A stretch of DNA of 64,000 bases from the sequence record PP488543.1. One strand, 5' to 3'. The stretch comes from Escherichia phage BP9. This document shows positions 17,008 through 52,261 of the stretch, one piece after another (positions within the stretch are counted from its first letter, which is position 1; each line of letters begins with the position of its first letter). A program made the position numbers and the translations under genes. Below the pieces are notes generated by a model that was not told where the DNA came from, did no database searches, and worked only from the letters and a program-made list of their open reading frames with translations.

Positions 17008-20000
17008 TGCCAATTGCAATGATTGATAACATCGTTGCTTCTGCAAGATCTTCAAGTTATGACTGGAACGCATCCAAGGCAGCTCTGGCTGACAGCCTGA
17101 ACACTGTTACCACCAGAACTCTGGATAAGATTTTTGAGGGTAACAAATCTTACAGAAGTCAGCAAGATAGACAAAAGCTTCTCAGATCTTCTGCTGCACC
17201 CTGCTCTGTAGTGTATGGAAAGACACGCACATCTGGATTGCTTGCGTTTTTGGAGCAGGATAGAGACAAAACCCTCCATTGTGCTATTGTTCTTGCCAAT
17301 CACCCTCTGGAAGGTATAGAAGATATACTTATCGATGGTAATCCTATTTCCTCGTATGGAGATTTGGTATCGTGGGAGTTACATAACGACAGAAAAACGG
17401 CTGATCCTTTCATGGGGACACACTGCCCATCGTGGTCACCAGACATGATAGGTAGAGGGATCAGTTGGCTACGTGCCAGCTTCAAGTTCGACCCTAACAA
17501 GTTTCCTTTTGGGTTGCCAAACGTTACACTCGTTAAGGTTGGTAAAAAATGCTATGATCCTCGTATCAGTAAAGAGGTGTACACCAATAACGCATCCTTG
17601 GTGATCCTGGACTATTTAAGAACGTACCTTAAATGTCCTGACGAAACCATCAACTGGGAGTCCTTTAAGGAGGCTGCCAACATATGCGACGAGGCGGTAA
17701 AAAACGCTGACGGAACCAGTGAGCGACGTTACACCATTAACGGTGAGTTTGACATGGATGAGGCCCCAGCAAGTATTATGGCAGAAATGCTGAAAGCTTG
17801 CGGTGCAGACCTTAGTTATGTTGCTGGTAAGTATGGTTTGCTGGTTGGTGCATACTATGGTCCGGCAACAATGACATTGAGTGAGGACTGTGTCTGTGGT
17901 GAGGTTAAGATCTATCCGGAAGCCTCATTTGACAAAAGATCTAACACAATAACTGGCAGATTCACTAGTCCGACCAAAGGGTATTCTGAAACAGATTTCC
18001 CATCAGTGTTTGTCCCAGAGTGGATAGAGAAGGATGGAGAAAGAAAGATAATCGATATAGACTATCGCTTTGTTACCAGTCCTTATCAAGCTCAACGTGT
18101 TTCTGCAATCTTCTTAAGACGTGCTAGAGCTGGCAGGATTATTGAAGTCACCTGCAATATGCGAGGTTTTAAATTTAAGCCTGGCCGTTACGTTACAATG
18201 AATCTCCCAAGTATTGGTATAGTAGGCCAAGAAATGAGGGTTCTTGAATGGGAGTTCACCAAAAAGGGTGGTGTCAAGGTAAAACTTCGTCAAGATGCTA
18301 AAGAGTGGAATGATGCCACAGGGCAACTTCCGGATTCTGGTGATGTAGATATTCCGATATCTCCATCTGGTGTAGCTCAACCGCAAAACTTCAGATACTC
18401 CGTCCTCCAAGCTGGGGAAATAACTCACGGTGTTCTGGCTTGGGACAACGTTGGGACTTACGCTCAAAATATTGTGCAGGTAAGAAAGAACGGAGAGATT
18501 GTTTGGACAGCACAGACAGTTGAGCAGTTTGTCCGAGTAGAAGGCTTGACCAAAGGGTCATACACAGCAACCGTGGTTGCAACATCTTATAAAGGTGGTG
18601 TATCTCCAGAAGCGTACTGCGAGTTTAACATTCAGGCACCTGAAGCTCCTGTTTCTGTAGAGGTTAAGCAGGGATACTTTGCTATCACCTTGATTCCACA
18701 CAGCAGGGATTTAGCAAGTGTAAGCACCCAGTATGACTTTTGGACATCTGGTATGACAAGGTTGCCCGACACCAGCGATGCAACCGTTACTTCAAACGCC
18801 ACCCGTATGGGTGTTGGTTCAACTTGGACATCCGAAGGTCTGCAGAACGATAAGGTTTATTATTGGTATATTCGAACCACAAACGCTTTTGGTAGCTCTC
18901 AGTTTGTAGAGTGTGCTGCACGCTGCTATACCTCCATTGAGGATTTGATGCCTCAGATAGATGCTGAATTCAAAAAGACAGAAACTTATAAAGAGTTGAT
19001 GAGCACTTTGGATTCCTCTATTGAAGAGGTTGAAAATCGTGTCACAGAACTTAACAGGTACATGGATGGTAGAGTTGACGAGGCTTTTGACCACATGGAA
19101 GGTGAGTTCTCTAGAGTAGACAAGCTGTATGCTCAGTTGGGAGATAGGGTTGGAATATTCATCCAAGAAACCCACGACAACTTCCAGGACGTTAATGGAA
19201 CGCTTACCACTCTAGATCAGAAACTGGTAGCCACTCAGAACAAGTTTGCAGATGATCTTTCTAAAGAAAGTGGCAAGCTTGCTTCTCTAATCCAGACCAC
19301 TAACAAAGCTACAACCGATCTGTTAAATCAGAAAACTGAAGCTTTGGACGAGAAGATTGTTTCAACCAGGGGTGAGTTGGAAGATGCTTTAGCGCAGGAA
19401 AGCTCTGAGCTGAACTCCCTGATTGTATCAACCAATAAAACGACTACAGATCTCCTTAATCGGAAAACCGAGGCTTTAGACAATAAGCTGACGGCAACGA
19501 AAGGTGAGTTGACCAACAATCTGCAGAATGAGAGTGCTAAACTATCGTCCTTGATTGAGTCAACCAACAAATCCACCACTGATCTTCTTAATAAGAAAAC
19601 AGAGGCGTTGGATGAAAAACTGGTTGCTGCACAGGGCGAGTTGACTGAGCAGATCGGAGATGTTGAAAAAGGCTATCTGGCTGGTGATAAGAGCCTAGAG
19701 GGCAAGTTGAATACTCAAAGATCTGAGTTGGATGCGAGCATTCTGAGCACTAACCAGGCCACTGTGGACTTGCTGAACAGAACTTCTGAGACTCTTGACC
19801 AGAAGATTAGCCAGACCAACGCCACAGTGTCCAAAAACTACACCACGCTTGATGGTAAGATAAACACCGCCAAGTCTGATCTTAATACGTTGATTTCTAC
19901 CACCAACAAGGCCACAACTGACCTGTTGAATCAGAAAACGGCAGCTTTGACTGAGCAGTTAACCACTGCTAAAGGGCAGATTACAACCAACACCAATAAT

Positions 20001-21152
20001 ATTACTGGGTTGGACAATAAGCTGACTCAGACGAAGAAAGACTTGTCTGCGAATATTTCTGAAACTAATAACGCCACTGTTGATCTGATTAACGGCACAG
20101 CGTCAGCTATTCGTCAAGAACTTGCTGTTGCTAAGCAGGAGATCATTGATGGTGTTGGCGATGTGTCCGAGATCAGGGCTGCAGTAGCTACAACAGCTAA
20201 GGCTGTGACCGACTTAGAGGGTAAAGTAAATGCTCAGTGGGGTACAAAAATACAGGTAGACTCCGCAGGGAATAAATATGTTGCAGGTATCCAGTTGGGG
20301 ATGGAAGGGTCTGGGGGCCAAGTTCAATCCTACTTCATGGTTAGTGCAAACAATTTTGCGGTATACAATCCTGGCAATGGAACAGCAACCCTTGCTTTCG
20401 CAATCAAGAACAACCAAGCGTTCTTGAAAGACGCTTTTATAGAGAATGGCACGATCTCCTCTGCCAAGATCGCACAAGAAATTTCGTCAAACAACTACGA
20501 TGGCAACGGGTACCATAAATACGGTTGGTATATTAACAAGAACGGGCACGCCCAATTTATGGATGTGTGGGTGAAAGGCAACATCAACGCCAGTTCTGGT
20601 AACTTCACAGGGGCAGTTAACGCCACTAGTGGTACCTTCCGTGGGGATGTTTATGCCAATAATGGTAGCTTTAGAGGCACCATAGATGCAACCGGAGGTA
20701 CCTTCCGTGGTCGTGTAGAAGCTTCTGTTATCCGTGCCAACCAGTTCGAAGGTGCAATTGTTGCACACAGGACTTACGGGGATTGTGCTCCAGTATATAA
20801 CTCTCAGCAAAGGGTTTGCCGTTGGAGGTGGAGATACGTAGATAACGTTTCAGGTCAGGGTAAGAACGTAACATTCTTCTTTAAACTGAACGGTACTCTT
20901 GCCAGCTCCCAACTGAATGCATGGATAGCTGGTCATCAGATCCTTGCTGGCAAGAAGTATTTTAACGACAACAACGGCATGTGTGCGGTAGGGATAACAG
21001 GTCTGGGTGAACAAACTATAGACATTGTTATCGAGATTTACACACCGTGGTCAACGTCGAGCGTGACAGGTGTCACAATCTCCTGTCCCACTGTGATAGT
21101 AAGTCGTTCAAACTCTAGCTTCCAGGGACCTTGGAACGAGTCTCACGACTAA
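17007..21152 (+). CDS. lambda J-like host specificity / central tail fibre protein (1381 aa) with internal coiled-coil repeat insert
   Basis: Segment ILDYLRTYLKCPDETINWESFKEAANICDEAV...RYTINGEFDMDEAPASIMAEMLKACGADL parallels the lambda J Phage-tail_3 core (AWCLWDMLTHPRYGMG...DKWALYVIGQYCDQSV...RITCNAYL). Further matches: APEAPVSVEVKQGYFAITLIPH versus lambda [23 protein letters not shown], and KIQVDSAGNKYVAGIQLGMEGS versus lambda [21 protein letters not shown]. Confidence 0.8.
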   Translation: MPIAMIDNIVASARSSSYDWNASKAALADSLNTVTTRTLDKIFEGNKSYRSQQDRQKLLRSSAAPCSVVYGKTRTSGLLAFLEQDRDKTLHCAIVLANHPLEGIEDILIDGNPISSYGDLVSWELHNDRKTADPFMGTHCPSWSPDMIGRGISWLRASFKFDPNKFPFGLPNVTLVKVGKKCYDPRISKEVYTNNASLVILDYLRTYLKCPDETINWESFKEAANICDEAVKNADGTSERRYTINGEFDMDEAPASIMAEMLKACGADLSYVAGKYGLLVGAYYGPATMTLSEDCVCGEVKIYPEASFDKRSNTITGRFTSPTKGYSETDFPSVFVPEWIEKDGERKIIDIDYRFVTSPYQAQRVSAIFLRRARAGRIIEVTCNMRGFKFKPGRYVTMNLPSIGIVGQEMRVLEWEFTKKGGVKVKLRQDAKEWNDATGQLPDSGDVDIPISPSGVAQPQNFRYSVLQAGEITHGVLAWDNVGTYAQNIVQVRKNGEIVWTAQTVEQFVRVEGLTKGSYTATVVATSYKGGVSPEAYCEFNIQAPEAPVSVEVKQGYFAITLIPHSRDLASVSTQYDFWTSGMTRLPDTSDATVTSNATRMGVGSTWTSEGLQNDKVYYWYIRTTNAFGSSQFVECAARCYTSIEDLMPQIDAEFKKTETYKELMSTLDSSIEEVENRVTELNRYMDGRVDEAFDHMEGEFSRVDKLYAQLGDRVGIFIQETHDNFQDVNGTLTTLDQKLVATQNKFADDLSKESGKLASLIQTTNKATTDLLNQKTEALDEKIVSTRGELEDALAQESSELNSLIVSTNKTTTDLLNRKTEALDNKLTATKGELTNNLQNESAKLSSLIESTNKSTTDLLNKKTEALDEKLVAAQGELTEQIGDVEKGYLAGDKSLEGKLNTQRSELDASILSTNQATVDLLNRTSETLDQKISQTNATVSKNYTTLDGKINTAKSDLNTLISTTNKATTDLLNQKTAALTEQLTTAKGQITTNTNNITGLDNKLTQTKKDLSANISETNNATVDLINGTASAIRQELAVAKQEIIDGVGDVSEIRAAVATTAKAVTDLEGKVNAQWGTKIQVDSAGNKYVAGIQLGMEGSGGQVQSYFMVSANNFAVYNPGNGTATLAFAIKNNQAFLKDAFIENGTISSAKIAQEISSNNYDGNGYHKYGWYINKNGHAQFMDVWVKGNINASSGNFTGAVNATSGTFRGDVYANNGSFRGTIDATGGTFRGRVEASVIRANQFEGAIVAHRTYGDCAPVYNSQQRVCRWRWRYVDNVSGQGKNVTFFFKLNGTLASSQLNAWIAGHQILAGKKYFNDNNGMCAVGITGLGEQTIDIVIEIYTPWSTSSVTGVTISCPTVIVSRSNSSFQGPWNESHD
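19240..20180 (+). repeat. tandem ~40-45-aa coiled-coil repeats (about 6-7 units) inside the J-like gene
   Basis: Recurring unit S(L/I)I.STNK(A/T)TTDLLN.KTEALD.KL....GEL seen repeatedly in the translation, with corresponding DNA periodicity. Confidence 0.7.
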
Positions 21153-22759: not shown

Positions 22760-23446
22760 ATGGCAGAGATTAAGTCGGATGTTAACCACATCCACACTCT
22801 GCCAGATTTTGTTCAGGGAGGTCTTGACTACCTACCTGGAGATTTTCTGGCTGAGAAGGTTAATTTAGTCACATTCTTAACCGTATACCTTAAAAGGTTG
22901 GAGGATGTTGATAAGATGCTGGTAGGTTTGGCTGAAGGAAGATTGCTTAACAATGCCAGCGGAAGATACCTTGACGAAGTTGGTAATCAATTTGGTATTC
23001 TTAGGAATGGACTTTCAGATGCTGATTTTCGTGCCACACTAATTATTCAGCAGGCCGCAGCATCAAGGGGCGGGACTCGCGAAGATGTCATCTCCACCTT
23101 GCGACAATTGTTCGGAAGAGACAATTTCGATACGTGGAAAGGAGACAACTTCAGGTTTGACATAAATATTAGAAAAACTTGCTTTGACATATTGCAGTCT
23201 ATCGATCAGATCTTAGATATGCTACCATTGCCTTGTCATTTGCGTCTTACAGAATCGCAAGGGCAAGCTTTTGGTTTTGAAGGGGACTCTACAGCTCTTG
23301 GCTTCGGATCGGTGTGGGAAGAAAACCAATTCGGAGTTGGTGGGCTGGCTACTTTGCTGTATGTTCCTGACGTAAGACCTGATTGGGACACCACAACCAT
23401 TTATTGTGAAAGTATTACAGTAAACGCAACTAGACAGGAGGGTTAA
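22760..23446 (+). CDS. baseplate/fibre-associated protein of unknown function (gpI-like position)
   Basis: Position between the putative baseplate J gene and the first distal fibre gene; no motif recognised. Confidence 0.25.
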   Translation: MAEIKSDVNHIHTLPDFVQGGLDYLPGDFLAEKVNLVTFLTVYLKRLEDVDKMLVGLAEGRLLNNASGRYLDEVGNQFGILRNGLSDADFRATLIIQQAAASRGGTREDVISTLRQLFGRDNFDTWKGDNFRFDINIRKTCFDILQSIDQILDMLPLPCHLRLTESQGQAFGFEGDSTALGFGSVWEENQFGVGGLATLLYVPDVRPDWDTTTIYCESITVNATRQEG

Positions 23447-25518
23447 TGGCAACAGCTGTTTTTAAACCTTACCGTGATTACTCTACAATGGCTGCACAGT
23501 TTCATTACCGAACAGTTCAGGATACTGCCGTTCCTGGTAGGGATTATAATCATGTTGAGGGCGATGTAACTATCCCAATTGGGGCAACCAGTATTGAAAT
23601 CCCAGTGGAAATTGTTGACAAATTACCCAACAGGTTACCAAGAAGCTTCTTTATGGAGTTTTCATCAAAATCTCAAGGGGTGATGATTGGGACACAAAGG
23701 GCAAAATGTACAATAGTTTCAGATGAGAATCTTGACAGGATATCTTGGGATACTGTTGAGGAGAGAATGTTTCACCCAAGATATTGGGTTACAACCACCC
23801 AGCAGACTGAAAGTACCTGTATTGTTGCAGATGACAACTGTTGTATTAACCGTTTAGTGTCAAGAACATATGGGGGTATGGCTGGGTGCATTTGGGAAAC
23901 AGTTGACAAGTATGACCATTTCGGTATTGGGTTTGATGATCACTATGAGATGAGAAATACCAAGCTTTGGTTCAGAATGTCAATAACCAATGCCAGCAAC
24001 TTCTCCACTCCTGAAAAGATGATTATGACTGTAGACCTTGTTGATGGCACAATCATCTATGTTCCTTTAGCTCAATATGCTGTCAGCATCTCAGAGGATA
24101 AGAATGTTGCAGAAATTCATATTGATTTTGAGGACTGCGTCGGGATGGACCAGAACAACAACATGATGGGTGTTGATCCTCGGCAGGTGAGAAGGATTTT
24201 AATACCGCTCATGCCTAAAGACTGGGTAAGTAATAGCACAGACCCGAGAACGGAAAATGTAGAGTGCGAGTTGCGCTTAGACCTGCTTCAGCCAGACACA
24301 GGTTGGAAAATGATGCAACTTAACAATATTCAGGTTAAAGAGCACGACGTTGGGATCTGCACTGCATATGACGATATGTGGAACGTATCCCCTTTAAGGG
24401 TGTTGAACAATATCAAGCGTCTGGGCTATACCGGAACCATAAACCATTATGTTGGTATGAGTCATTATTATGACTACACGTGGTCAGGAACCCAATGGTC
24501 TATAAACAGAACAGGGGCGCTAAACGCTGCAGCTTATAAATGGCATGATGATTTTATGTACAATGCCAAACGACATAACTTCGACGTTATGCAGTCTGTA
24601 AGTTTTGAGCTTTACAGCGATGCCTGCCCGTTGGAATGGACCCAAAGAGACTGGAACGATAACTACGCTAAAACAGGGTATACACCTTGTAGCTACCTCC
24701 TGTCTCCAACCATTGAAGAGGGTATGAATTTCCTTACTGCAGTATTTAAGAATTTTGCATCAGCCGCTATGAGAAACAACCTGCCAGTGATTATGCAGGT
24801 TGGTGAACCGTGGTGGTGGTACAATACCGATACTCGTAGACCTTGTATTTATGATTACCCTACAAAACAGGCGTTTTATGATGAGACAGGCGAGTATGCA
24901 TTAGATATTGGGACTATTGACGATCCTAAAACTGGCGGTGTTTACGATAAGTATGTAGCATTTTGTCGTGGTAAGCTTGGCGCTCGTATTGCGGCTATTT
25001 CAAAGGCAATAAAGGCACACGCTGCATCAGCTCAGATGACAGCTCTGCTGTTTTTCCCAACCATTATGGAAACCGAGCTTACGCAAAAGCTTAACCTTGC
25101 TGACCAATATAAAAAGGAAGCAGGTGCTCTTGATTTCTTCTGCACCGAGTGCTACGATTGGGTGATGCAGGGAGGTATTGAAAAGGCAAAAGAGTCTGTA
25201 AACATACCTATCGTTAAGTTAGGTTGGCAACCGTCTGAAATACAATACCTTGCAGGGTTCGTTCCTAGCAAAGAGCTTGCTCCGGTATATGGCTACGACC
25301 CAACCAGGAATTACCAAGAATTCTTATGGAGATGTATCTGCGGAAACATGGCAACTATAGAGTATAGATACCCTGAGGTAAAACAGTATGTGTGGGCATA
25401 CCCGCAAGTAATGTCTGACAGCATTACTGTTACCGCTAGAGATTCTACCGTGCTTCATATGGGGCAGGTTGCTCTGAAAGGGTATGTAGAGGATGTTGTC
25501 CCGCCAGACTTCTCATAA
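23446..25518 (+). CDS. putative tailspike/depolymerase: N-terminal Calx-beta-like domain plus TIM-barrel glycoside-hydrolase-like domain (690 aa)
   Basis: N-terminal DYNHVEGDVTIPIGATSIEIPVEIVD resembles Calx-beta; central/C-terminal region has a GEPWWWY segment reminiscent of the NEP acid/base motif of clan GH-A hydrolases. Confidence 0.35.
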   Translation: MATAVFKPYRDYSTMAAQFHYRTVQDTAVPGRDYNHVEGDVTIPIGATSIEIPVEIVDKLPNRLPRSFFMEFSSKSQGVMIGTQRAKCTIVSDENLDRISWDTVEERMFHPRYWVTTTQQTESTCIVADDNCCINRLVSRTYGGMAGCIWETVDKYDHFGIGFDDHYEMRNTKLWFRMSITNASNFSTPEKMIMTVDLVDGTIIYVPLAQYAVSISEDKNVAEIHIDFEDCVGMDQNNNMMGVDPRQVRRILIPLMPKDWVSNSTDPRTENVECELRLDLLQPDTGWKMMQLNNIQVKEHDVGICTAYDDMWNVSPLRVLNNIKRLGYTGTINHYVGMSHYYDYTWSGTQWSINRTGALNAAAYKWHDDFMYNAKRHNFDVMQSVSFELYSDACPLEWTQRDWNDNYAKTGYTPCSYLLSPTIEEGMNFLTAVFKNFASAAMRNNLPVIMQVGEPWWWYNTDTRRPCIYDYPTKQAFYDETGEYALDIGTIDDPKTGGVYDKYVAFCRGKLGARIAAISKAIKAHAASAQMTALLFFPTIMETELTQKLNLADQYKKEAGALDFFCTECYDWVMQGGIEKAKESVNIPIVKLGWQPSEIQYLAGFVPSKELAPVYGYDPTRNYQEFLWRCICGNMATIEYRYPEVKQYVWAYPQVMSDSITVTARDSTVLHMGQVALKGYVEDVVPPDFS

Positions 25519-28914: not shown

Positions 28915-30660
28915 ATGGCGCAAGACATGACAAGCTTCGAGCAGGCGGTAGATCAAGTAATTGTTGATTCTGAACGTTTGCACTTGATTGTCAACGGTAA
29001 CGCTGTGGATGAAGTTGTCGTAGAGGATGGGACCACTATCCCTACGGTACGAAAAGCCATGCTTGACACCCTTTATTTTAAAACGCCACCAATCCCTTGG
29101 GCGTATGGTGCATCCACAACAGTTTTTAACCAGTTGTATGAGTTTAAAGGGGATACAGGCACTCAGTGGTGGTACGCCCCAGCAGCATCAAAATCTAACC
29201 CAGTTAGGATGCCAGCAGATCCTTCACAATCTCCGAACTGGAGATTATATACAGATTCTGCAGTAATGGCAAAATACTACGCAAAACTTAACAGCCCAAG
29301 GTTCGAAGGTGATCCGAGAGCACCTACACCTCCAATGGACGATAAGTCCGAGTCTATAGCAAACACAGAGTTTGTTGTTGACTATGTGGATAGTATATTC
29401 AAAGCCATGGAGGGGATGAAAGTAACTGTAGGGTCTTTGGTAGTGAAAGGTCTTACAGAACTGGCTAACACCATAGTTGGTGGCACCCTTACCATACACG
29501 GGCCTGTTAATGGGGCTGATTCTACTGCACGCTTCAGGAACCTAATCCTTACTGCAAATACTTCTACACTAACTTTTGCGTGGAGCGATCCTAAGCATGC
29601 AGACTGGAGAAGCACAGAGCTGCAACCTCATGAAGTGGTCACCCACAGAGTTATAGCTGACACTATAACTTCTGGGAAACCAGTGGCTAATAACAACGAT
29701 GTGCATTTTGATGGTCTAGGTAATAACTTTTTTGACTACGTGTACATTCGTGGTAATGCCATGAAGGCAGCAACCGAACCGACATTGCAGGTTGATGGGA
29801 CCACCAGGGTTAAGAACCTTGAGGTGACAGGCACCGTTACAGGGATAACCTACTCTGTGGATGGCACCATGATCTACCCTAGCTATATTGAAAGCACAGG
29901 GGATGCACTGATCAATGGGGATTTAGAGGTTGGCGGATCTATAGTCATTCGTGGCACAGCATCTGTTCAGAACATATCTTTAAATACTCTGAGGGTGAAT
30001 GAGCGTGCCACTTTTGAAGGGGAAGGGCTTACTGCCAACAAAGGTGTGATTACCGAGCTGACAGCCACCACTCTAACTGCAACAACTGCAAACTCTGAAA
30101 ACTGCAACGTTACCCGCAACTTGCAGGTAAATGGAGATGTTAGTTTAAACGCAGCAGGTACGGGTACCACCTCTGTTCACAACCTTGAAATATCTGGCAC
30201 GGTGACTGGGTGGCTGCCAGACTTCTCTAATGTCAACTTTGTCTGCAACGGCATTAACTCTAGTGGTAAGATAACCACCTCTCAAGAAATTGAGGCTGGT
30301 AAAACTATTACTGCCCCTACTTTCCACGCAGGGAAGGTAGATTTTGATCTAGAGGAGGTTGACGCATCAGGTGGGACATGGACACCTAACGGGCAGGCCA
30401 GCATGTATGTTGTCCACGCGAAAGGGGATTTTACAATAGGCCAATGGCCTGGAACATCGGCTGAAGATAAACCTTACCCGTTTACTGCAATCATCTATGT
30501 CATTCAAGATGCTGTAGGCCACAACGTGACTTTGCACGATAAATATGCCATACTGTCGGCTACCCCTGTCATTAACAACAAAGCCAACAGCGTTACCTTG
30601 CTACAATTGACATATTGTGGTGTTGGTGATATTGTGGATGTGGTTATTGCACAACGTTAA
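28915..30660 (+). CDS. tail fibre protein (581 aa) with conserved fibre collar motif
   Basis: Motif APTPPMDDKSESIANTEFV matches the widespread fibre shaft motif (for example lambda Stf PTAPTALRGTNNTQIANTAFV); C-terminal region Thr/Gly/Asn-rich and beta-like. Confidence 0.6.
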   Translation: MAQDMTSFEQAVDQVIVDSERLHLIVNGNAVDEVVVEDGTTIPTVRKAMLDTLYFKTPPIPWAYGASTTVFNQLYEFKGDTGTQWWYAPAASKSNPVRMPADPSQSPNWRLYTDSAVMAKYYAKLNSPRFEGDPRAPTPPMDDKSESIANTEFVVDYVDSIFKAMEGMKVTVGSLVVKGLTELANTIVGGTLTIHGPVNGADSTARFRNLILTANTSTLTFAWSDPKHADWRSTELQPHEVVTHRVIADTITSGKPVANNNDVHFDGLGNNFFDYVYIRGNAMKAATEPTLQVDGTTRVKNLEVTGTVTGITYSVDGTMIYPSYIESTGDALINGDLEVGGSIVIRGTASVQNISLNTLRVNERATFEGEGLTANKGVITELTATTLTATTANSENCNVTRNLQVNGDVSLNAAGTGTTSVHNLEISGTVTGWLPDFSNVNFVCNGINSSGKITTSQEIEAGKTITAPTFHAGKVDFDLEEVDASGGTWTPNGQASMYVVHAKGDFTIGQWPGTSAEDKPYPFTAIIYVIQDAVGHNVTLHDKYAILSATPVINNKANSVTLLQLTYCGVGDIVDVVIAQR

Positions 30661-30668
30661 TATATCTG

Positions 30669-30694
30669 ACCGCTCCTGACGGGGCGGTTTTCTT
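30669..30694 (+). terminator. rho-independent terminator
   Basis: ccgctcc-tgac-ggggcgg hairpin followed by ttttctt. Confidence 0.6.
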
Positions 30695-30708
30695 ATCTGG
30701 AGAACACA

Positions 30709-33700
30709 ATGCTTCCAATCCCTTTGCTAAAACTTGGTCGTCATTTCCTCGATAAGAGGGGTGGAGTTAAGGAACTTGCTGTTCTGTCATACCCAATAGA
30801 CAACAGTGACGGTACAAGCACTACAGTAGCCTATGTAAATAGTTTAGCTATACTTTTTGACGACGGTCAACTTAATATTACAGGGTACAACAGGTTCGGG
30901 GAGTGTAGGACTGGGGATCTTGACACGATAAACTACCCTAATGAGGCTGCCTGGAACGTTGATCATGTGTGGAGAGCAGATCGTGCGTTTGTGATCCGAA
31001 CTTTTGATAATCAGTTTTTCTACATCGGCTGTACTGCAGGGCTTATTGGGTCTGATGCTGCAGGCGGTAATGATGTTTGTGTAAGGGAGTGGACACCTCT
31101 TCCTGAACAAATCGTTAAAGGATTGCACCTTGACACCCACCCAGAGCGCCTTGTTGAGGTGATGGGTGGTATTAACAACACCGTCTGGGTTATGGCAGAG
31201 GCAGAAGGTACTGGCATTTTACACCTGTACGGATCTGGTAACAACACCTACGGATCTTTGCATGTGGATAAAAACCAGCATGCAACTCCTGTAAAGATTG
31301 GTGAAACATCGGAAAATCCTGAAACAGGTCCTTGGAAAAACCCAAGCATCAACTGTGAGGTGCATGATAACTCTGTTATTTTCGGCGGTCCTAAAGGTTT
31401 CTGGATTGCGGGATACGACTTTCTGAGAAACAACAGTAGAAACGACCTTGTTTGGCCTCCTGCTCAGATTACTCGTGACGATTTGAGAGGTATTCCTGCA
31501 GATGAGGAGTGGAAAGGGTTCATGTGTGGTCCGAACGGGGCAGTGGTTGTAACACAAAGAATGCACAGACCTGATGACCAGCAACTTGTTAACGTATTCT
31601 ACGGGCAAAACATCTGGGGAGATGATACATGGCGTTCCTTAAATCTTACCTACACCCATGAAGTAATAATGGCGCGTGGGTACGGAACAAGCGGCATTTT
31701 CTTCAATAATGGCACTAAGCAGTACCGTGGATTCTCTCGCAACTTATGTAATGATATTGGTGCACAGTCTGCAAACAATAGCCCTAGGGATAATTTTATC
31801 CACTATCAAGCCCTTGCTACAGCTAAATATGTTGAGCAAAGACTGCCAGTCAGCTGGACAGAGAGTGTTTATTTCCAAGGCATTCACAGAGAAGGTTTTT
31901 TAGGAACTTTTACCGTTGTTAATGGTAAACTTTGGTGGTCAGGTATCCCAAGGGGAAGTTTTGCAGGCTCTAATAACCTGTTTGGCGGCAGACTTAATAG
32001 CCAAGGGTTCACGGAGGTCCCTGAGAATTGGTATAAAAATGTCCCAGTAGATAGTTGGGGTGTTGATGATATTTTCGACGTTAACGGTGTTAGCAGCGTT
32101 AGCAATATCTACATTGGCGACACGGTCAAGATGAAATTGAAGCCTCAGCCAGAGGGGGCTACGTTCATTATTGACAAGATTGAACTGGTAAATGCTGCAG
32201 GTACGGTTGTTACAGATGCAAATTACCAATTCTCTACCAACTGGAACCACGGCGGGGCCAACGAAGTTATTGTTACCCAGTATAACAGGAATGTTAACAG
32301 ACGTGGACTGTACTCCGTAAAAATAACCTATCATGACAAACATGGCACAGGCAGGACCCACACAACAAGGACTTTGAACTGGAACACTATTGTCCCTGCG
32401 TATCCGTCTGATGGTAAATGGCATACTGTCGGTAGAAACAAACAGTTCCATGTTAATGACACTGTATACTTTGGACTAAATGCGGCCCAGCCTGCAGTAG
32501 AAGGGGATACATCGTATATGGTCAGACTCCATAGAATGGATGCTGGGTCAGTAACCTATGATGTTACCCAAGAGATTTATAATCAGCGACGAAATACCTA
32601 TGATAACTTGGTGCAGACACAGGCCCTATGGGAGTTCAACCCAAACGGAAGGGGTGGTAAAATGTTGCAGGTCAACGAACAAAACGGGACATCGTTGACT
32701 GTTCACGAACACCCAAACCCTTGGCCTGATCCTGGAAAACCTAACTCTGGTGCTCGTACACTAAAAATTGTCAGCCATGACGTAGGATATTTCGGAATAC
32801 GCTGGGAAGCCACAGTAAGATATGCCGACGGGACAACAAACAATATAGGGATTACCCTTGGTGGCACCAGTGAGAATAACTCGCTGAAAATTGCCTACAC
32901 TCCTAGAGGTATTTCTATTGATAATATGGATGTTGTTCGCAACGGTTACGGGGATGTGAACATCAAAGTTACTCTTGGTGAACATCTTGGCGGGGAAAGG
33001 ATCATCATGTATGCCTTTGATCATGACCCTCGCACCAACGGAACATATGCAGACCAGGCGTGGAGCTACCTGATAAGCGCACCTGAGCCAAATACCAAAG
33101 AATTCTACTACGGTATGAAGCGAGATGTGTGCAAGAAAACAGGGACACATGACTGGATTGCGATCTGTGTTAAAGATGAACGTACCGCTTGGAACGAGCC
33201 TGTTAACAGATGGTTCATAGGTATTCCCACCCGAAGTGATAAATACGTTGAAGAATACATTGTGTGCATGGGCGGCACCAACCTTAATATGTGTTGGAAC
33301 GGGGATGCAAACAACAAATACTCTGATTATGACTATATGCGGGACTATTCTTGCAATCAGTGGTTTAACCAACCTGGATATGCTGATCGACAGGCAAGAG
33401 TGAATCCTGCAATCTTTACAGATACGCAGGTTTTCTTGACAAAACAGGCCAACGAGGTTCAGACCTTCAAGAACAAATACGACCCTAACAAGTGGTTTTA
33501 TAACTGTTATGGCGCATTTTTCTGGGGTCCTGGGGAACTACCTGGCGGGGGATCTTGCTTCGAGTCTGCAACTTACGCCAGTGACTACATCATGGGGCAG
33601 GTTAAGAAGTATAAGATAATCCCCGGCCCTGAAACTTTGGGCAATGCCGTTGACCCTTATATCGTCATGACTGCGCTGAGATCAAACATGGATGGGACAT

Positions 33701-36345
33701 CCATGTCTATGCAAATCCCAGTAACAAATGGGTACAAACGTGTTGTAATGATCATTAAGTGCGACCTAATAGGTAAACAAGTTCTTGCGGAAAACGGTAC
33801 CTCCACACATCCTTTTGAGATCGCTCTACACTATCAGTTTGCTGACTCGCCTTTTGCAGGTGATAAGAGAATATCTGATACAGATACACAGCGTTGTAAG
33901 AAGGTGTTGTTAGGTGCAGGTTGGTGGTGGTATGAATTTGATTTAACAGACAAATTCACCGACACGTCAAAAGTTGTAACGGGTCTTCGCCTAGACCTTG
34001 GCGAGAACATGCATAAAGCTGTTTGTGATGGCACCTATGGTGATCCTACAGTATATCTAAAGTATGTCTCTTTTGAGCATCCGGAAGATGTTGTTTACGG
34101 TCCAAAACTGAGATTGTTTGGCAGTTGGATTGCAAAAGACAGGGTAGGCATGGGTAAAAAGGTAAGAGGGTTCTTAGTTGATGCAGGAACAGAGGACATG
34201 CTGGTTAATGCAGTATGGCCTGAATTGCCCGGCACTCAGTGGGATAACTCTGCCAAATCTATAAACTGGTTCAACATTCACAGGGCTATGTGGACCACTA
34301 ACTGCTACTTGTGGAGAGAGCTTAACGATCAGGCTTTTGGCTTCAGCAACGGCAGAAGGATGGCAATCATTTGCTGGACAACGCTGCAAAGGTGCTATGA
34401 CCATGACTACGAGATTGGCGGTAGGGCATGGAAAAATATCAGGGATAGAATCATAACCAATTTTGCAGACGACAACGGAGGTGGAGCACATAACTTCGGC
34501 ACAAGTAGACTTATTCACTTGAATGGGTCATCTGCATATAAGAAAGAGGGTTATTCTGGGTCTATGATCGAGTGGGGTCTGGTGAAAGATGCTCGCGTAT
34601 TGATGGGTCAACAACTTGCTGCTGCAATAGGACCTAACGCAGTGCAGTCTGTTAAACCAGCGTGGTTCGATATCCCAATATGGTCATCTGGAACACCAGG
34701 AACTGCGGCAATCAACCCTACCACTGGGGATCTGGAAATCTCTTGGGAGGACTTAAAGCAGGTTGGTGGCTGGGATAAGACTGGGTACCAAGTGCAATGG
34801 TGGAGATCTGACGGATCGTTAGCGGCTGATGAGTTTGTTAAGGACAATTTCTACACTATGTCCTCTGCAAAAGCACAGCAATTGTTTGGTCAAGCAACTC
34901 CGTCAACGATCACTATGTCTATGTGCTGTAAAGATACCAGGACTGGAGCTCTGGGGCCAAGGGTTGCTAAAGTTTTCTCAGGTATTAAGTGGAATCTTCC
35001 TGTTCAAAGTGTTTCATGGAAGCAAATAGGTGATAACAAGCTACTGGTTACTCCTGCCTGCCAGTTCAACGCAACTCTCAACGTTGACCCAGCTGTTGCA
35101 GCAAACTCGGCTAGAGCTTCTGACTTCTCTGTGTCTAACACTGCCATGGCAGATGTGAGAAAGATTGACACACTGAATGCCAGAATTACCTGTAAAAACA
35201 CTTATGGCACATTCCAGATCATCAACAACTTTACAGATGTTGATTCTAAGGCAGTGAGGACAGCCAGCCAGACTATGCAGTTAGGCACTCTGGCATACTC
35301 TGCACTGATCACTGAACAGTCTCCTACCCTTCAGGGTGGGGGTGTTGGTAAGTTGATTACAACTCCTGTATGGAAGCCAAATGAGTGGGTTGTATTCGAT
35401 TTGACTGTGGACTTCTCCAGTGATAATAACTGGACATGGGTAAGGAATTGTTTGTCACAGCTGATGGGTGGCCCAAACTCCATTAGTGATAGCCATGACT
35501 CTACTGACCCGAGTGTGTTCCAGGTTGGTAAAACTCACCCAGAAACTGGGGCACAGTTGCCTGACAGGAAGTATGCTTTGGTTTGCATCTCCAACGGCAA
35601 GGCAGATGTAACCTTCTCAGGGACACACACATATAACGGCACTTACAACTTCTCTAAAAAGTACAGCCTCAAGGCAGGTAACATTGTAGACGAGGTTGGT
35701 GCGTTGTATAATCCGGGAAACGGGATAGGGATTGTAGGTGGTAAACTGCAGATGCAGGAACCTTCTATTACCCCTTCCAATGTGCCAGGAATCAGAAAGA
35801 CTTGGGAAAGTAGTAATACCAACATTGCAACAGTGGATGCCACCACAGGATTGGTAACATTTAAAGCTACTGGGAATGTCACCATAAAGTTTGTAGTTAC
35901 AGATGATGCAGGGCGCAAAACGTCTTCAACATCTTTTACTGTCAAACAGATGGCACCGCAGTGGAGAATGTGGATAGGTACAGCAACAAACGGGGCATAC
36001 CCTAATCCGGCAGGTACTTCTGGTATGAAGACTTTCTCTACAAGCAAACCGATGGAGTACGGCAGCGGTCCTAAGGTAGGGCAGATGGTGTACTTTGGTG
36101 CGTATATTCCTGAAATTATAGGGCTTCCGAGAAGTCAGCTTCAGTTGCTGTTTGGGGCTGGTGTTGACGATCTTGCCACTTTCGGGTATAGCGACAACAT
36201 CGAGGCTGCAAGGAGTTCAGGATGGGTAGGGTTCAGAATGGAGTCTGGAAAGGAAGGCAGGATTCTAGGGACAGCCTCTATAGGTGTTATGTTCCCTGGT
36301 GACCAGCAGTATCGTCTAGAAGCCTACGCAACCTTTTCTCGTTAA
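30709..36345 (+). CDS. giant virion-associated protein (1878 aa) with N-terminal RCC1-like beta-propeller repeats and a C-terminal Big_2 Ig-like domain
   Basis: RCC1-like repeats (ITGYNRFGECRTGD, YGSGNNTYGSLH); Big_2-like segment VPGIRKTWESSNTNIATVDATTGLVTFKATGNVTIKFVVTDDAGRKTSSTSFTV; last gene of the fibre cluster before a bidirectional terminator. Confidence 0.5.
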   Translation: MLPIPLLKLGRHFLDKRGGVKELAVLSYPIDNSDGTSTTVAYVNSLAILFDDGQLNITGYNRFGECRTGDLDTINYPNEAAWNVDHVWRADRAFVIRTFDNQFFYIGCTAGLIGSDAAGGNDVCVREWTPLPEQIVKGLHLDTHPERLVEVMGGINNTVWVMAEAEGTGILHLYGSGNNTYGSLHVDKNQHATPVKIGETSENPETGPWKNPSINCEVHDNSVIFGGPKGFWIAGYDFLRNNSRNDLVWPPAQITRDDLRGIPADEEWKGFMCGPNGAVVVTQRMHRPDDQQLVNVFYGQNIWGDDTWRSLNLTYTHEVIMARGYGTSGIFFNNGTKQYRGFSRNLCNDIGAQSANNSPRDNFIHYQALATAKYVEQRLPVSWTESVYFQGIHREGFLGTFTVVNGKLWWSGIPRGSFAGSNNLFGGRLNSQGFTEVPENWYKNVPVDSWGVDDIFDVNGVSSVSNIYIGDTVKMKLKPQPEGATFIIDKIELVNAAGTVVTDANYQFSTNWNHGGANEVIVTQYNRNVNRRGLYSVKITYHDKHGTGRTHTTRTLNWNTIVPAYPSDGKWHTVGRNKQFHVNDTVYFGLNAAQPAVEGDTSYMVRLHRMDAGSVTYDVTQEIYNQRRNTYDNLVQTQALWEFNPNGRGGKMLQVNEQNGTSLTVHEHPNPWPDPGKPNSGARTLKIVSHDVGYFGIRWEATVRYADGTTNNIGITLGGTSENNSLKIAYTPRGISIDNMDVVRNGYGDVNIKVTLGEHLGGERIIMYAFDHDPRTNGTYADQAWSYLISAPEPNTKEFYYGMKRDVCKKTGTHDWIAICVKDERTAWNEPVNRWFIGIPTRSDKYVEEYIVCMGGTNLNMCWNGDANNKYSDYDYMRDYSCNQWFNQPGYADRQARVNPAIFTDTQVFLTKQANEVQTFKNKYDPNKWFYNCYGAFFWGPGELPGGGSCFESATYASDYIMGQVKKYKIIPGPETLGNAVDPYIVMTALRSNMDGTSMSMQIPVTNGYKRVVMIIKCDLIGKQVLAENGTSTHPFEIALHYQFADSPFAGDKRISDTDTQRCKKVLLGAGWWWYEFDLTDKFTDTSKVVTGLRLDLGENMHKAVCDGTYGDPTVYLKYVSFEHPEDVVYGPKLRLFGSWIAKDRVGMGKKVRGFLVDAGTEDMLVNAVWPELPGTQWDNSAKSINWFNIHRAMWTTNCYLWRELNDQAFGFSNGRRMAIICWTTLQRCYDHDYEIGGRAWKNIRDRIITNFADDNGGGAHNFGTSRLIHLNGSSAYKKEGYSGSMIEWGLVKDARVLMGQQLAAAIGPNAVQSVKPAWFDIPIWSSGTPGTAAINPTTGDLEISWEDLKQVGGWDKTGYQVQWWRSDGSLAADEFVKDNFYTMSSAKAQQLFGQATPSTITMSMCCKDTRTGALGPRVAKVFSGIKWNLPVQSVSWKQIGDNKLLVTPACQFNATLNVDPAVAANSARASDFSVSNTAMADVRKIDTLNARITCKNTYGTFQIINNFTDVDSKAVRTASQTMQLGTLAYSALITEQSPTLQGGGVGKLITTPVWKPNEWVVFDLTVDFSSDNNWTWVRNCLSQLMGGPNSISDSHDSTDPSVFQVGKTHPETGAQLPDRKYALVCISNGKADVTFSGTHTYNGTYNFSKKYSLKAGNIVDEVGALYNPGNGIGIVGGKLQMQEPSITPSNVPGIRKTWESSNTNIATVDATTGLVTFKATGNVTIKFVVTDDAGRKTSSTSFTVKQMAPQWRMWIGTATNGAYPNPAGTSGMKTFSTSKPMEYGSGPKVGQMVYFGAYIPEIIGLPRSQLQLLFGAGVDDLATFGYSDNIEAARSSGWVGFRMESGKEGRILGTASIGVMFPGDQQYRLEAYATFSR

Positions 36346-36354: not shown

Positions 36355-36389
36355 AATAAAAAGGGGCCGTTTGGCCCCTTTCTTTTTAT
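36355..36389. terminator. bidirectional intrinsic terminator between convergent gene blocks
   Basis: aggggcc-gttt-ggcccct hairpin flanked by an A-run upstream and a T-run downstream; lies between the 36345 stop (+) and the 36392 stop (-). Confidence 0.75.
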
Positions 36390-36391: not shown

Positions 36392-36592
36392 TTAGTAATA
36401 CTCCCAACATGCCCCATCTTCAGACGGCTTGACGCGCTTACCTTTATGGTCAACATAGGTATAGCCACAACCTTCACAAATAACAGGTGCTGCATAGCCT
36501 TCCTTCCACTGATCCTCAGTGATCAGACCTTCCAAATCTTTGCAGTCAAAGCCAAACAACTCTTCAGAGCAATCTTTACAAAAATCAGCCAT
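36392..36592 (-). CDS. small zinc-ribbon protein (66 aa)
   Basis: Two CxxC pairs (CKDC ... CEGC). Confidence 0.4.
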   Translation of the reverse strand: MADFCKDCSEELFGFDCKDLEGLITEDQWKEGYAAPVICEGCGYTYVDHKGKRVKPSEDGACWEYY

Positions 36593-36595
36593 TTC

Positions 36596-37042
36596 TCAGT
36601 CCTCGCATTTAACAAATTTTTCTACAGATCCACCAAGCACAGCTTGTTGTTTGATGGCACTTTCTTCATCATAGTGGATAGACTTATGTTCCGTACCTCC
36701 AAACTTACCTGTGTGGAAGGTGTGCACCCAAATCTCTTTAGGAAGGGATTTATTCTCTTCTTCCACCAACTCCCACATTCCCCATAAGTGATCTGTGATA
36801 TCTCTGATGAAATATCCCTCGCCGAGGTTTGTATTCACACTATAAGCTGATTCGTGATTTCCACAAATATAACGGAAGGCTGTGTACTCTTTACCTGGTG
36901 TGAAGTGAGTGTCCATTAGTATAGCTGTTAAAGAATAAGGGTCTCGAAAGCCCAAGAACTTTAGTTTAACAATTTCGACATTTACATCTGCAAGATTGTT
37001 CATGACGATCTCCTCTGTTTGGTTGGTGAGATAATCATACAT
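36596..37042 (-). CDS. hypothetical protein (148 aa)
   Basis: ORF tightly packed in the minus-strand block; contains a GNHE tetrapeptide but no other phosphoesterase motifs. Confidence 0.35.
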   Translation of the reverse strand: MYDYLTNQTEEIVMNNLADVNVEIVKLKFLGFRDPYSLTAILMDTHFTPGKEYTAFRYICGNHESAYSVNTNLGEGYFIRDITDHLWGMWELVEEENKSLPKEIWVHTFHTGKFGGTEHKSIHYDEESAIKQQAVLGGSVEKFVKCED

Positions 37043-51966: not shown

Positions 51967-52261
51967 GTTTTTTTTGCTTATCACCAATGCAGTTATTTGT
52001 ACTGGCATAGCAATTCGCGTTGTCACATTCCGGCGTAACGGATCTCAACACCGAAGATGGGGTGGGTGGATTGCTTATTTCCTGATTGTTGCTGCGGCCA
52101 GTATTCCTGTTCGTGTCGTTTATGCAATCTGGTTACGCACGCCAATGGCTGTGGATTTATCTGAGGTCATTATCAACGCTGTCATGCTTGCTGCGGTTAT
52201 TAAAACGCGCGGTAACGTCGTTCAGATTTTCAAAATAACGAGGTCTAAACATGGAGATTAA
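51953..52261 (+). CDS. putative second lysis membrane protein (holin/antiholin-like, 102 aa)
   Basis: Three hydrophobic helices; overlaps the holin stop and the endolysin start. Confidence 0.45.

What the first reader, a model, noticed from the sequence alone, without database searches (positions are those of the whole stretch)
30709..36345. 1878-aa protein combining RCC1-like beta-propeller repeats with a Big_2 domain
This giant ORF closes the fibre cluster. It has RCC1-like repeats at the N-terminus, a long Trp/Gly-rich central region and a Big_2 Ig-like domain near the C-terminus. The architecture is unusual for a tail fibre and could be an adhesin, an enzyme carrier or an injected protein.
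Basis: partly seen in the sequence, partly recalled or inferred. Interest (0 to 1): 0.5.

Follow-up and report, generated by a model that had tools for sequence, protein, structure and literature searches.

The report
Giant propeller-and-Ig phage tail-cluster protein
This is the intact 1878-residue orthologue of coliphage rV5 gp27, a conserved but uncharacterised protein that most likely forms a flexible sugar-binding accessory fibre on the virus particle; it is a known gene whose function has never been tested.

The parts
30709..36345 (+). Complete ORF, 1878 aa plus stop; orthologue of rV5 gp27
   Evidence: phrog_15684 matches full length
30699..30702 (+). Shine-Dalgarno GGAG, 6 nt before the ATG
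   Evidence: read from the sequence
30668..30689 (+). Terminator-like hairpin (9 bp, 6 GC) plus T-run between the stop of the upstream fibre gene (30658-30660) and this start; it may attenuate read-through (inference)
30607..30635 (+). Sigma-70-like promoter match (TTGACA-17-TATTGT, with TG) inside the end of the upstream gene; consensus match only, and the number of matches in the region is no higher than in shuffles
30709..32058 (+). aa 1-450: most conserved module of the protein; a divergent RCC1-like beta-propeller candidate with an invariant N-terminus M-x-P-I-P
   Evidence: conservation; alignment to RCC1-positive relatives over the whole length; fold not verified
30826..31308 (+). aa 40-200: the part with statistical RCC1-like support (about three blades, GxNxxG motifs at aa 59 and 177)
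   Evidence: PF25390 E 1.6e-4 and RCC1_2 E 0.055; phrog_4219 E 9e-8 and phrog_11922 E 7e-29; hhalign 98.7% to Seunavirus RCC1+Big_2 proteins
32059..33222 (+). aa 451-838: about three Ig/FN3-like beta-sandwich units (the last, aa ~737-838, is confident, pLDDT ~80)
   Evidence: secondary structure and pLDDT; Foldseek top hits are three-domain FN3/Ig arrays, E ~1e-4
33223..33513 (+). aa 839-935: strongly conserved orphan segment (invariant GGTN, YDYxRD, TDxQxFLxKQANEVQ)
   Evidence: invariant columns; no homologue outside the family; model not confident
33514..34083 (+). aa 936-1125: beta-jelly-roll with a carbohydrate-binding-module-like fold; its sequence varies between lineages
34084..34692 (+). 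aa 1126-1328: conserved, mainly helical orphan segment rich in invariant Trp, Glu, Asp, His, Arg and Cys (EDMLVNxVWP, SINWFNxHRAMW, CWxxLxRCY, EGYxGSMIEWG)
   Evidence: no Pfam, NCBIfam or PDB match
34699..34983 (+). aa 1331-1425: FN3-like beta-sandwich
   Evidence: pLDDT 57-78
35020..35688 (+). aa 1438-1660: two Ig-like units; the first (aa ~1441-1520) is the most variable segment between alleles
35725..35976 (+). aa 1673-1756: Big_2 (intimin-type) Ig domain; Pfam core aa 1686-1733 = 35764-35907
   Evidence: pLDDT up to 92
35977..36342 (+). aa 1757-1878: C-terminal beta-rich tip domain with two hypervariable patches (aa 1761-1800 and 1841-1878); two allele groups exist among Vequintaviruses
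   Evidence: covered by phrog_215
36360..36381 (+). Strong GC-rich hairpin terminator at the convergent junction with the minus-strand genes
28915..30660 (+). Upstream partner gene: 581-aa tail fibre (phrog_4549; its orthologue carries Pfam Phage_phiTE_241_N/C). It is always adjacent to the propeller-headed gene in related genera

Best explanation
The gene encodes a low-copy protein on the virion surface that belongs to the tail-fibre apparatus. It is most likely a long, flexible, probably monomeric 'beads-on-a-string' accessory fibre or adhesin. Proposed mechanism, with inferred steps marked: (1) The conserved N-terminal module (aa 1-450, a divergent RCC1-like propeller with an invariant MxPIP N-terminus) is the constant part that docks the protein on the particle, probably on or next to the adjacent gp241-type fibre or the baseplate periphery [inferred from conservation, synteny and polarity]. 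(2) About eight Ig/FN3-like beta-sandwiches act as spacers and weak glycan binders [fold shown at low to moderate confidence; role inferred]. (3) The CBM-like jelly-roll, set inside a conserved orphan region, binds, and perhaps processes, a conserved surface polysaccharide [fold-level evidence only]. (4) The variable distal units (the Ig unit at aa ~1441-1520, and the C-terminal tip domain that follows the conserved Big_2 unit) make strain-specific contacts [inferred from localised allelic diversification]. The net effect would be reversible capture of cells or exopolysaccharide, raising adsorption and modulating host range. Primary receptor binding on K-12 belongs to the deacetylase fibre (window 23446-25518), not to this protein.
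Confidence: 0.5

Rival explanations
1. Enzyme carrier. The conserved orphan central region (aa ~839-935 plus 1126-1328, flanking the CBM-like domain) is a new glycan-degrading or glycan-modifying catalytic domain, and the protein is a depolymerase fibre like the other enzymatic fibres of this phage group. This reading can coexist with the adhesin reading.
For: The two segments are dense in invariant Asp, Glu, His, Arg, Trp, Tyr and Cys across homologues down to 45% identity, which is more than expected for a spacer. They flank a CBM-like module, a common layout in carbohydrate-active enzymes. Vequintavirinae fibres are known to carry several glycan-active domains (PMC8594841; Pfam NCTSP TIM-barrel in the neighbouring 690-aa protein).
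Confidence: 0.15
2. Head, neck or sheath decoration (a Hoc-like or whisker-like filament) rather than a baseplate fibre. The protein would decorate the capsid, collar or sheath and mediate weak adherence to mucus, biofilm matrix or cell surfaces.
For: Ig-like strings are typical of decoration proteins. phrog_215, which matches the C-terminus, is categorised under 'head and packaging'. Related RCC1-like proteins are virion components of Rak2-like jumbo phages that bear unexplained 'hairy' filaments on the sheath and capsid (PMC7247149, PMC5259590). A nonsense allele suggests the gene is dispensable.
Against: [quoted passage not shown] The rV5 spectral count is low for a protein that would decorate many sites. 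The C-terminal hypervariable patches look like receptor-driven diversification.
Confidence: 0.15
3. Reverse polarity. The C-terminal domain anchors the protein and the N-terminal propeller is the distal ligand-binding head, since beta-propellers often bind ligands on their top face.
For: Propellers are ligand-binding platforms in several Gram-positive phage receptor-binding proteins (established knowledge; not tested here). The 411-413-aa slot-mates in Certrevirus and Septuagintavirus consist of the propeller-sized part alone yet are virion proteins, so that part must itself both bind the particle and do something.
Against: The propeller is the least variable part (90-100% among alleles and about 70-80% in 45-58% relatives), whereas the parts C-terminal to it are swapped wholesale between genera. 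This is the pattern of an N-terminal anchor with exchangeable distal modules. The C-terminal tip shows patchy hypervariability.
Confidence: 0.12
4. Internal or ejected protein, or a 'DNA condensation' protein as the RCC1 name suggests. The protein would be packaged in the head and act on DNA or be injected.
For: Several phage papers have proposed DNA condensation for RCC1-domain virion proteins on the basis of the name alone (PMC11370258, PMC7247149).
Against: In this family the propeller is fused to Big_2, Ig, FN3 and CBM-like modules, which are extracellular adhesion modules. The gene lies in the fibre cluster. There are no hydrophobic segments (max KD19 1.13), the pI is 6.3 so the protein is not basic, and there is no protease or lysozyme domain.
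Confidence: 0.03
5. Annotation or assembly artefact: several genes fused into one ORF by a sequencing error.
For: A few database records annotate two CDSs under the region (for example ECP26, naswa, APECc02), and one metagenomic contig splits it into 557 + 1272 aa.
Against: 107 records carry at least 80% of the gene, and all but a few of the records listed annotate a single feature there. rV5 gp27 is exactly 1878 aa. Homologues at 45-74% identity are 1876-1976 aa. The split contig differs by a single in-frame TGG-to-TGA change, not by a frame boundary. Conservation runs continuously through all domain junctions.
Confidence: 0.01

Closest known systems
Escherichia phage rV5 gp27 and its Vequintavirus orthologues (for example FV3; EmilHeitz bas49_0041 'lateral tail fiber protein with intimin domain')
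   Same: Orthologue: same length (1878 aa), same position, 90-94% nucleotide identity and up to 97% amino-acid identity.
   Different: Nothing substantive; this window carries one allele of it. The deposited annotations mention only the Ig/Big_2 domain. None of the records listed mentions the RCC1-like N-terminus or the CBM-like module.
Propeller-headed slot-mates: Seunavirus GAP31_232 (567 aa: RCC1-like + 2x Big_2), Phapecoctavirus tuntematon gp128 (890 aa; phrog_11922 'tail protein'), Certrevirus phiTE_242 and Septuagintavirus A5-4_249 / W70_106 (about 412 aa; phrog_15692)
   Same: Same genomic slot after the gp241-type fibre and before the strand switch. Homologous N-terminal module (30-40% identity over aa 1-200; hhalign 98.7% and 93.4%). 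Big_2 follows the propeller in the Seunavirus and Phapecoctavirus forms.
   Different: The relatives are 2 to 4.5 times shorter. They lack the central orphan region, the CBM-like domain and most Ig units. In this protein aa 200-450 have diverged beyond reliable detection.
Eukaryotic RCC1 / RCC1-like domains (HERC2 RLD, RAN-RCC1; Pfam PF00415, PF25390)
   Same: Blade signature (hydrophobic strand - G - x - N - x - x - G - x - L - G) at aa 59 and 177. Weak matches to PF25390, to HERC2 RLD (3kci, E 0.56) and to RAN-RCC1 (1i2m_B, Foldseek E 0.016).
   Different: All matches in this protein are below the curated thresholds. There is no evidence of GEF or chromatin function, and the context is a phage structural module.
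RCC1-domain virion proteins of large enterobacterial myophages (W70_237-239, GAP32 gp1, phAPEC6 paralogues; phrog_4219)
   Same: The N-terminal module matches phrog_4219 (E 9e-8), and those proteins are mass-spec-confirmed virion components of unknown role.
   Different: Those are stand-alone proteins of about 40 kDa encoded outside the fibre cluster, often as tandem paralogues. This one is a 208-kDa fusion inside the fibre cluster.
Intimin/invasin-type Big_2 domains and bacterial S-layer or adhesin Ig arrays (intimin 1f00/1f02, Sap, SbsC, LigB)
   Same: One Big_2 domain with direct sequence similarity to intimin D-domains (E 0.005-0.01) and fold similarity to tandem Ig arrays.
   Different: No beta-barrel, LysM or C-type-lectin domain, so this is not an intimin. 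The BASEL label 'intimin domain' refers only to the Ig unit.
Beta-jelly-roll carbohydrate-binding modules (CBM27, CBM4/22, CBM11, CBM28 and others)
   Different: 5-14% identity, no Pfam CBM hit, ligand-binding residues not identifiable, and a model of only moderate confidence.

Membership tests
RCC1-like repeat beta-propeller (Pfam PF00415 RCC1 / PF13540 RCC1_2 / PF25390 RCC1-like domain) | The sequence reaches the curated Pfam score for the repeat or the domain | tested here: not met
   PF25390 21.6 bits against a cutoff of 150 (E 1.6e-4, aa 44-199); RCC1_2 13.8 against 22 (E 0.055); PF00415 not reported
RCC1-like repeat beta-propeller | Demonstrable homology to proteins that do reach the thresholds | tested here: met
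   GAP31_232 and tuntematon gp128 pass PF00415 (32.7 and 23.9 bits against 21.7) and score E about 1e-10 on PF25390. hhalign between the giant-type N-termini and the Seunavirus set gives 98.7%, E 2.5e-16 over aa 1-201. phrog_4219 matches at E 9e-8
RCC1-like repeat beta-propeller | Seven tandem blades of about 50-60 aa closing into a propeller | tested here: inconclusive
   Seven blade-like segments can be read by eye in aa 20-450, but only about three have statistical support. The last blade aligns weakly (P about 4e-4 to 1e-3) and the self-repeat signal is E 0.33. AlphaFold pLDDT is below 50 over aa 234-434, and RAN-RCC1 appears only at rank 48, E 0.016
Big_2 bacterial Ig-like domain (PF02368) | Pfam score above the gathering threshold, and an Ig fold | tested here: met
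Classical trimeric phage tail fibre or tailspike | Encoded in the tail-fibre module, and present in virions | tested here: inconclusive
   The module position is met. Virion presence rests on weak rV5 mass-spec data and on solid data only for the distant short slot-mate W70_106
Classical trimeric phage tail fibre or tailspike | Trimeric shaft elements (coiled coil, triple beta-helix or beta-helix), a known N-terminal adaptor domain, or a C-terminal intramolecular chaperone | tested here: not met
   No such Pfam or PHROG domain is found, in contrast to the neighbours with Tail_spike_N and Peptidase_S74. No heptad pattern. The predicted secondary structure is a series of discrete beta-sandwiches. 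Oligomeric state itself could not be tested
Classical trimeric phage tail fibre or tailspike | Conserved N-terminus with variable or exchangeable distal part | tested here: met
Carbohydrate-binding module (beta-jelly-roll CBM families) | Jelly-roll fold similar to characterised CBMs | tested here: inconclusive
Carbohydrate-binding module (beta-jelly-roll CBM families) | Sequence membership of a CAZy or Pfam CBM family; demonstrated sugar binding | tested here: not met
   No Pfam or NCBIfam hit for aa 836-1330 even at E<=10. Binding itself cannot be tested with these tools
Intimin/invasin adhesins | N-terminal beta-barrel anchor, an Ig array and a C-terminal lectin-like domain | tested here: not met
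   Only about 40 residues of one Ig domain match; NCBIfam intimin scores 23 bits against a cutoff of 1400
Hoc-like capsid decoration proteins | Ig-domain string plus a capsid-binding domain; encoded with the head genes; high copy number | tested here: inconclusive
   The Ig string is present and phrog_215 is categorised 'head and packaging'. However, the gene lies in the fibre module and the rV5 spectral count is low. Location on the particle cannot be tested here

The most novel reading that the evidence does not exclude
The N-terminal RCC1-like propeller with its invariant MxPIP start is a dedicated virion-docking (fibre-branching) module. It defines a previously unrecognised class of 'propeller-headed' accessory fibres found across Vequintavirinae, Stephanstirmvirinae and possibly the Rak2-like jumbo phages. 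This would explain the long-puzzling RCC1 'DNA-condensation' proteins seen in virion proteomes as external adhesion or fibre components. In the Vequintavirus giant form, the orphan central region would be a new glycan-active domain.
Probability: 0.2. Interest if true: 0.6.

Novelty: new member of a known kind. Interest (0 to 1): 0.38.

Why it matters
rV5-like phages are among the most commonly isolated coliphages. They are used in O157 typing and in therapeutic and biocontrol cocktails, yet it is still unclear which genes build which of their fibres (PMC8594841), and fibre II of phi92 remains unassigned (PMC13450770). This 208-kDa protein is the largest product of the fibre cluster and has no assigned place or function. 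Three results make it a concrete candidate for unassigned fibre density and for host-range engineering: it has a fixed N-terminal module, exchangeable distal adhesion modules, and a hypervariable tip. The fusion of an RCC1-like propeller to Ig, CBM and leucine-rich-repeat-like modules also argues against the name-based 'DNA condensation' reading of RCC1 virion proteins in several phage papers. None of this changes a paradigm, and the gene itself is already in the databases.

Tried and rejected
(2) Foldseek against PDB on both models was dominated by tandem Ig/FN3 arrays; models cannot be cropped, so individual domains could not be searched. (3) Two of the three word-indexed homologue searches returned little: 3 fragments for aa 1-460 and 10 proteins for the N-terminal profile. 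(4) Exhaustive phmmer of aa 836-1440 against 1.84 billion representatives returned only family members. (5) Profiles of the N-terminal and central regions against PDB sequences gave only HERC2 RLD at E 0.56, and nothing, respectively. (6) NCBIfam added only the intimin Ig hit. (7) There is no paralogue in the window. (8) The phi92, phiTE, LL12, BASEL and receptor-prediction papers were searched for a localisation or phenotype, and none exists. (9) The PVP-SE1 proteomics paper is not held. In Table S6 of the W70 paper, the PVP-SE1 locus tags and product names look offset by one and the bold marking is lost, so I did not count PVP-SE1 as mass-spec support. (10) I considered and dropped a resemblance between the invariant motif 'NWFNxHRAMW' and the 'NNHSYW' motif of PL5 alginate lyases (recalled from memory); the spacing differs and no search supports it. 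(11) The idea that the 70-nm 'thin fibres' seen on rV5 (PMC3606486) are this protein fits a rough length estimate but cannot be tested here.
Full report
WHAT IS THERE. The window is part of a Vequintavirus (rV5/FV3-like) Escherichia coli myophage. Megablast of the region finds 120 phage records, and 107 of them hold at least 80% of the gene; the best is phage HMD-6 at 94.4% nucleotide identity. The ORF is exactly as reported: 30709-36345 on the + strand, ATG start, 1878 codons, with GGAG six nucleotides upstream. The predicted protein is 208.6 kDa with pI 6.3. It is the last gene of the long + strand structural block. Upstream lie the baseplate and fibre genes, including a J-like 1381-aa protein, an N4-gp65-like deacetylase fibre of 690 aa, two short-tail-fibre paralogues and a 581-aa fibre. 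Downstream there is a strong hairpin terminator at 36360-36381, and both gene orientation and GC skew flip. A weaker terminator-like hairpin (30668-30689) separates the gene from the 581-aa fibre gene.

NOT AN ARTEFACT. The rV5 orthologue, gp27, is also 1878 aa and 208,334 Da (Table S3 of PMC3606486). Homologues at 74% and 45-58% identity are 1876-1976 aa long. Conservation runs through every domain junction. The few split annotations in databases do not mark gene boundaries: in the one case I examined (Logan contig SRR22133733_6753), the split is caused by a single in-frame TGG-to-TGA change at codon 558, and the remaining ~1320 codons are intact.

DOMAIN CONTENT, TESTED. (i) Big_2 is confirmed. 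PF02368 matches aa 1686-1733 at 31.7 bits against a cutoff of 22.8, or 36.2 bits when the fragment is scanned alone. There is direct sequence similarity to intimin and Sap Ig domains, and the model reaches pLDDT 92 in this region.

(ii) The RCC1-like N-terminus is partly confirmed. The full-length Pfam scan is silent. Scanned alone, aa 44-199 match the RCC1-like-domain model PF25390 at E 1.6e-4, but at only 21.6 bits against a curated 150, and RCC1_2 scores E 0.055. PHROGs gives phrog_4219 'regulator of chromosome condensation' at E 9e-8 and phrog_11922 'tail protein' at E 7e-29. The decisive evidence is transitive. The proteins in the same genomic slot in Seunavirus (GAP31_232, 567 aa) and Phapecoctavirus (tuntematon gp128, 890 aa) pass the Pfam RCC1 repeat cutoff (32.7 and 23.9 bits against 21.7) and score E about 1e-10 on PF25390. 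They align with my protein over the whole of aa 1-450. A profile-profile comparison of the giant-type N-termini with the Seunavirus set gives 98.7% probability and E 2.5e-16, but only over aa 1-201. For aa 200-450 the only signal is a weak, collinear match of the last blade-like segment (P about 4e-4 to 1e-3).

The fold itself could not be verified. The AlphaFold model of aa 1-840 has mean pLDDT 49.8 and is below 50 over aa 234-434. RAN-RCC1 appears only at rank 48 of the Foldseek list, at E 0.016. A profile search of PDB sequences finds only HERC2 RLD, at E 0.56. My conclusion is that about three RCC1-type blades are securely present, and that a complete, divergent seven-bladed propeller is likely but not shown.

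(iii) aa ~451-838 form about three Ig/FN3-like beta-sandwiches.

(v) aa ~1331-1756 contain an FN3-like unit, two Ig-like units and the Big_2 unit. The Foldseek top hits are tandem Ig arrays: NUP210, cadherins, and the Sap, SbsB and EA1 S-layer proteins.

(vi) aa 1757-1878 form a beta-rich terminal domain.

There are no transmembrane-like segments (maximum 19-residue Kyte-Doolittle score 1.13), no coiled coil and no long linkers. Trp is enriched at 3.0% overall and 3.7% in aa 841-1330, against a mean of 1.7% for 24 other ORFs in the window. Gly is only mildly enriched.

COMPARATIVE CONTEXT. The slot 'immediately after the gp241-type fibre, last gene before the strand switch' is occupied in five genera by a protein that begins with the same module, with an M-x-P-[IF]-[PA] start followed by RCC1-type blades. 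The occupants are: Vequintavirus (1878 aa); an uncultured relative with perfect synteny (P0015, 1976 aa); Phapecoctavirus (890 aa: propeller + 2x Big_2 + a leucine-rich-repeat-like C-terminus); Seunavirus (567 aa: propeller + 2x Big_2); and Certrevirus phiTE_242 and Septuagintavirus A5-4_249 (413 and 411 aa, about the size of the propeller alone). The short forms belong to phrog_15692. They link to the Seunavirus set at 93.4% probability and E 2.5e-7; their direct link to the giant form alone is weak (E 0.038).

The upstream neighbour is orthologous throughout: 64% identity to the neighbour of P0015, which carries Pfam Phage_phiTE_241_N/C. So the constant parts of the system are the propeller module and its partnership with that fibre gene. 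Everything C-terminal to the propeller is exchangeable.

VIRION ASSOCIATION. W70_106, the Septuagintavirus slot-mate (phrog_15692, 44 kDa), gave 115 spectra from purified virions, and its CB7_37 orthologue is annotated as a structural protein (PMC11370258). For rV5 gp27 the evidence is thin: three non-tryptic peptides, 9 spectra and 3.1% coverage, in a list that also includes gp1, which has the same length (660 aa) as the rIIA orthologue (PMC3606486). No cryo-EM study has placed a family member. The phiTE paper models the STF and LTF and leaves a 'third putative fiber' unmodelled. The phi92 paper leaves fibre II unassigned. BASEL states that it is unclear which genes form which fibre.

POLARITY. 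Among Vequintavirus alleles the N-terminal 450 aa stay at 90-100% identity. Identity collapses in short patches of the C-terminal domain: aa 1761-1800 fall to 42-45% and aa 1841-1878 to 57%, even in an allele that is 91% identical overall. In the Ig unit at aa 1441-1520, identity to the 74% allele is 25-37%. The last 294 aa fall into two allele groups, at 95-99% and about 79% identity. A fixed N-terminus with a diversifying distal end is the signature of a particle-anchored, host-facing protein.

MECHANISM PROPOSED. The protein is a low-copy, probably monomeric, flexible accessory fibre or adhesin. The propeller module docks it on the particle, most plausibly on or near the neighbouring fibre or the wedge periphery. 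The Ig/FN3 units provide reach. The CBM-like domain and the conserved orphan region engage a conserved glycan. The variable distal units give strain-specific contacts. What is shown: the ORF, its position, Big_2, RCC1-type homology of aa 1-201, the orphan status of the centre, the synteny and the variability map. What is shown only at fold level and with moderate confidence: the Ig array and the CBM-like domain. What is inferred: the docking role of the propeller, the monomeric state, glycan binding and the accessory role. The primary K-12 receptor (the NGR glycan; BASEL interpreted the wecB dependence as use of ECA) is attributed in the literature to the deacetylase fibre, which is the 690-aa protein at 23446-25518. 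I put this reading at about 0.5. The rivals are a novel enzymatic domain (0.15, not exclusive), head, neck or sheath decoration (0.15), reverse polarity (0.12), an internal or injected or DNA-condensing protein (0.03) and an artefact (0.01).

COMPARISON WITH THE KNOWN, AND NOVELTY. The gene is an allele of rV5 gp27, deposited in more than 100 genomes as 'Ig-like domain-containing protein', 'structural protein with Ig domain' or 'lateral tail fiber protein with intimin domain'. It is not an intimin, since only one Ig unit matches. It is not a classical trimeric fibre, since no shaft, adaptor or chaperone element is found. By Pfam's own thresholds it is not formally an RCC1-family member, although it is homologous to proteins that are. 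Four points appear to be unremarked in the records and papers I could read: (a) the RCC1-type N-terminus of the Vequintavirus protein; (b) the five-genus 'propeller-headed slot-mate' series of 411 to 1976 aa; (c) the CBM-like module and the orphan conserved region; and (d) the implication that RCC1-domain virion proteins, which several papers interpret by name as DNA-condensation factors, are more plausibly external fibre or adhesion components, because here the same module is fused to Ig, CBM and leucine-rich-repeat-like adhesion domains inside the fibre cluster. This is a useful re-annotation and a testable hypothesis, not a new kind of system.

VERDICT. This is a known gene of unknown function and of moderate interest (0.38). 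The most novel reading not excluded is that the propeller is a dedicated docking or branching module defining a class of accessory fibres, and that the orphan centre is a new glycan-active domain. I give that about 0.2 probability and an interest of about 0.6 if true.

Noticed in passing
Locus L007 8001-13628 (Logan SRR22133733_6753); equivalent to window 32380-32382 (codon 558): A natural Vequintavirus allele (85.5% nucleotide identity, collinear) carries an in-frame TGG-to-TGA change at codon 558, with the remaining ~1320 codons intact. The 557-aa product (cluster P0016, 77 member sequences) would be propeller plus one Ig unit, resembling the short Seunavirus form. It could be a recent nonsense mutation, a sequencing error or a read-through site.
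   Followed up: partly
window 30668-30689: A terminator-like hairpin plus T-run lies between the 581-aa fibre gene and the giant ORF, with a sigma-70-like match (30607-30635) just upstream. The giant gene may therefore be expressed at a different, probably lower, level than the preceding fibre genes.
   Followed up: no
window 17007-21152: The 1381-aa protein of this myophage carries lambda-J-type domains (Phage_Tail_Tip, Ig_J, Ig_J_second; phrog_31 'central tail fiber J'). These are usually associated with siphophage tail tips. BASEL annotates it as a lateral tail fibre with an FN3 domain.
   Followed up: no
window 23446-25518: The 690-aa protein has the N4 gp65-type 'non-contractile tail sheath' N-terminal and TIM-barrel domains plus Calx-beta. 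This is the deacetylase fibre that the literature credits with binding the NGR glycan (BASEL: ECA) as primary receptor of Vequintaviruses.
   Followed up: partly
window ~52000-64000: GC content rises from about 0.43-0.46 to 0.48-0.50 in the last 12 kb of the window, with another change of GC-skew sign at about 56-60 kb.
   Followed up: no
GenBank MG0656xx records (hits H36, H41, H48, H64 and others): Fifteen to twenty records named 'Campylobacter phage', with host given as C. jejuni, are rV5-like or Phapecoctavirus-like coliphage genomes at 89-95% protein identity to this gene. This is probably mislabelling or contaminating coliphages.
   Followed up: no
Protein P0018 (NCBI, 318 aa, 'hypothetical protein, partial [Eggerthella lenta]'): This fragment is 99-100% identical to part of the N-terminus of the phage protein but is filed under a Gram-positive gut bacterium, on a 955-bp contig. 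Its assignment to Eggerthella lenta is therefore doubtful; coliphage contamination of that assembly would explain it.
   Followed up: no
Table S6 of PMC11370258: PVP-SE1 locus tags and product names appear shifted by one relative to their orthologues. For example, gp041 'putative tail fibre protein' is paired with the 88-aa membrane protein gp29 of rV5. Cross-genus proteome comparisons drawn from that table need care.
   Followed up: partly
window 36446-36787 (+): This 113-aa ORF just downstream has no PHROG match and overlaps the minus-strand ORF 36596-37042. In the related phage EmilHeitz this region is annotated only with minus-strand genes, so the ORF is probably not a gene.
   Followed up: partly
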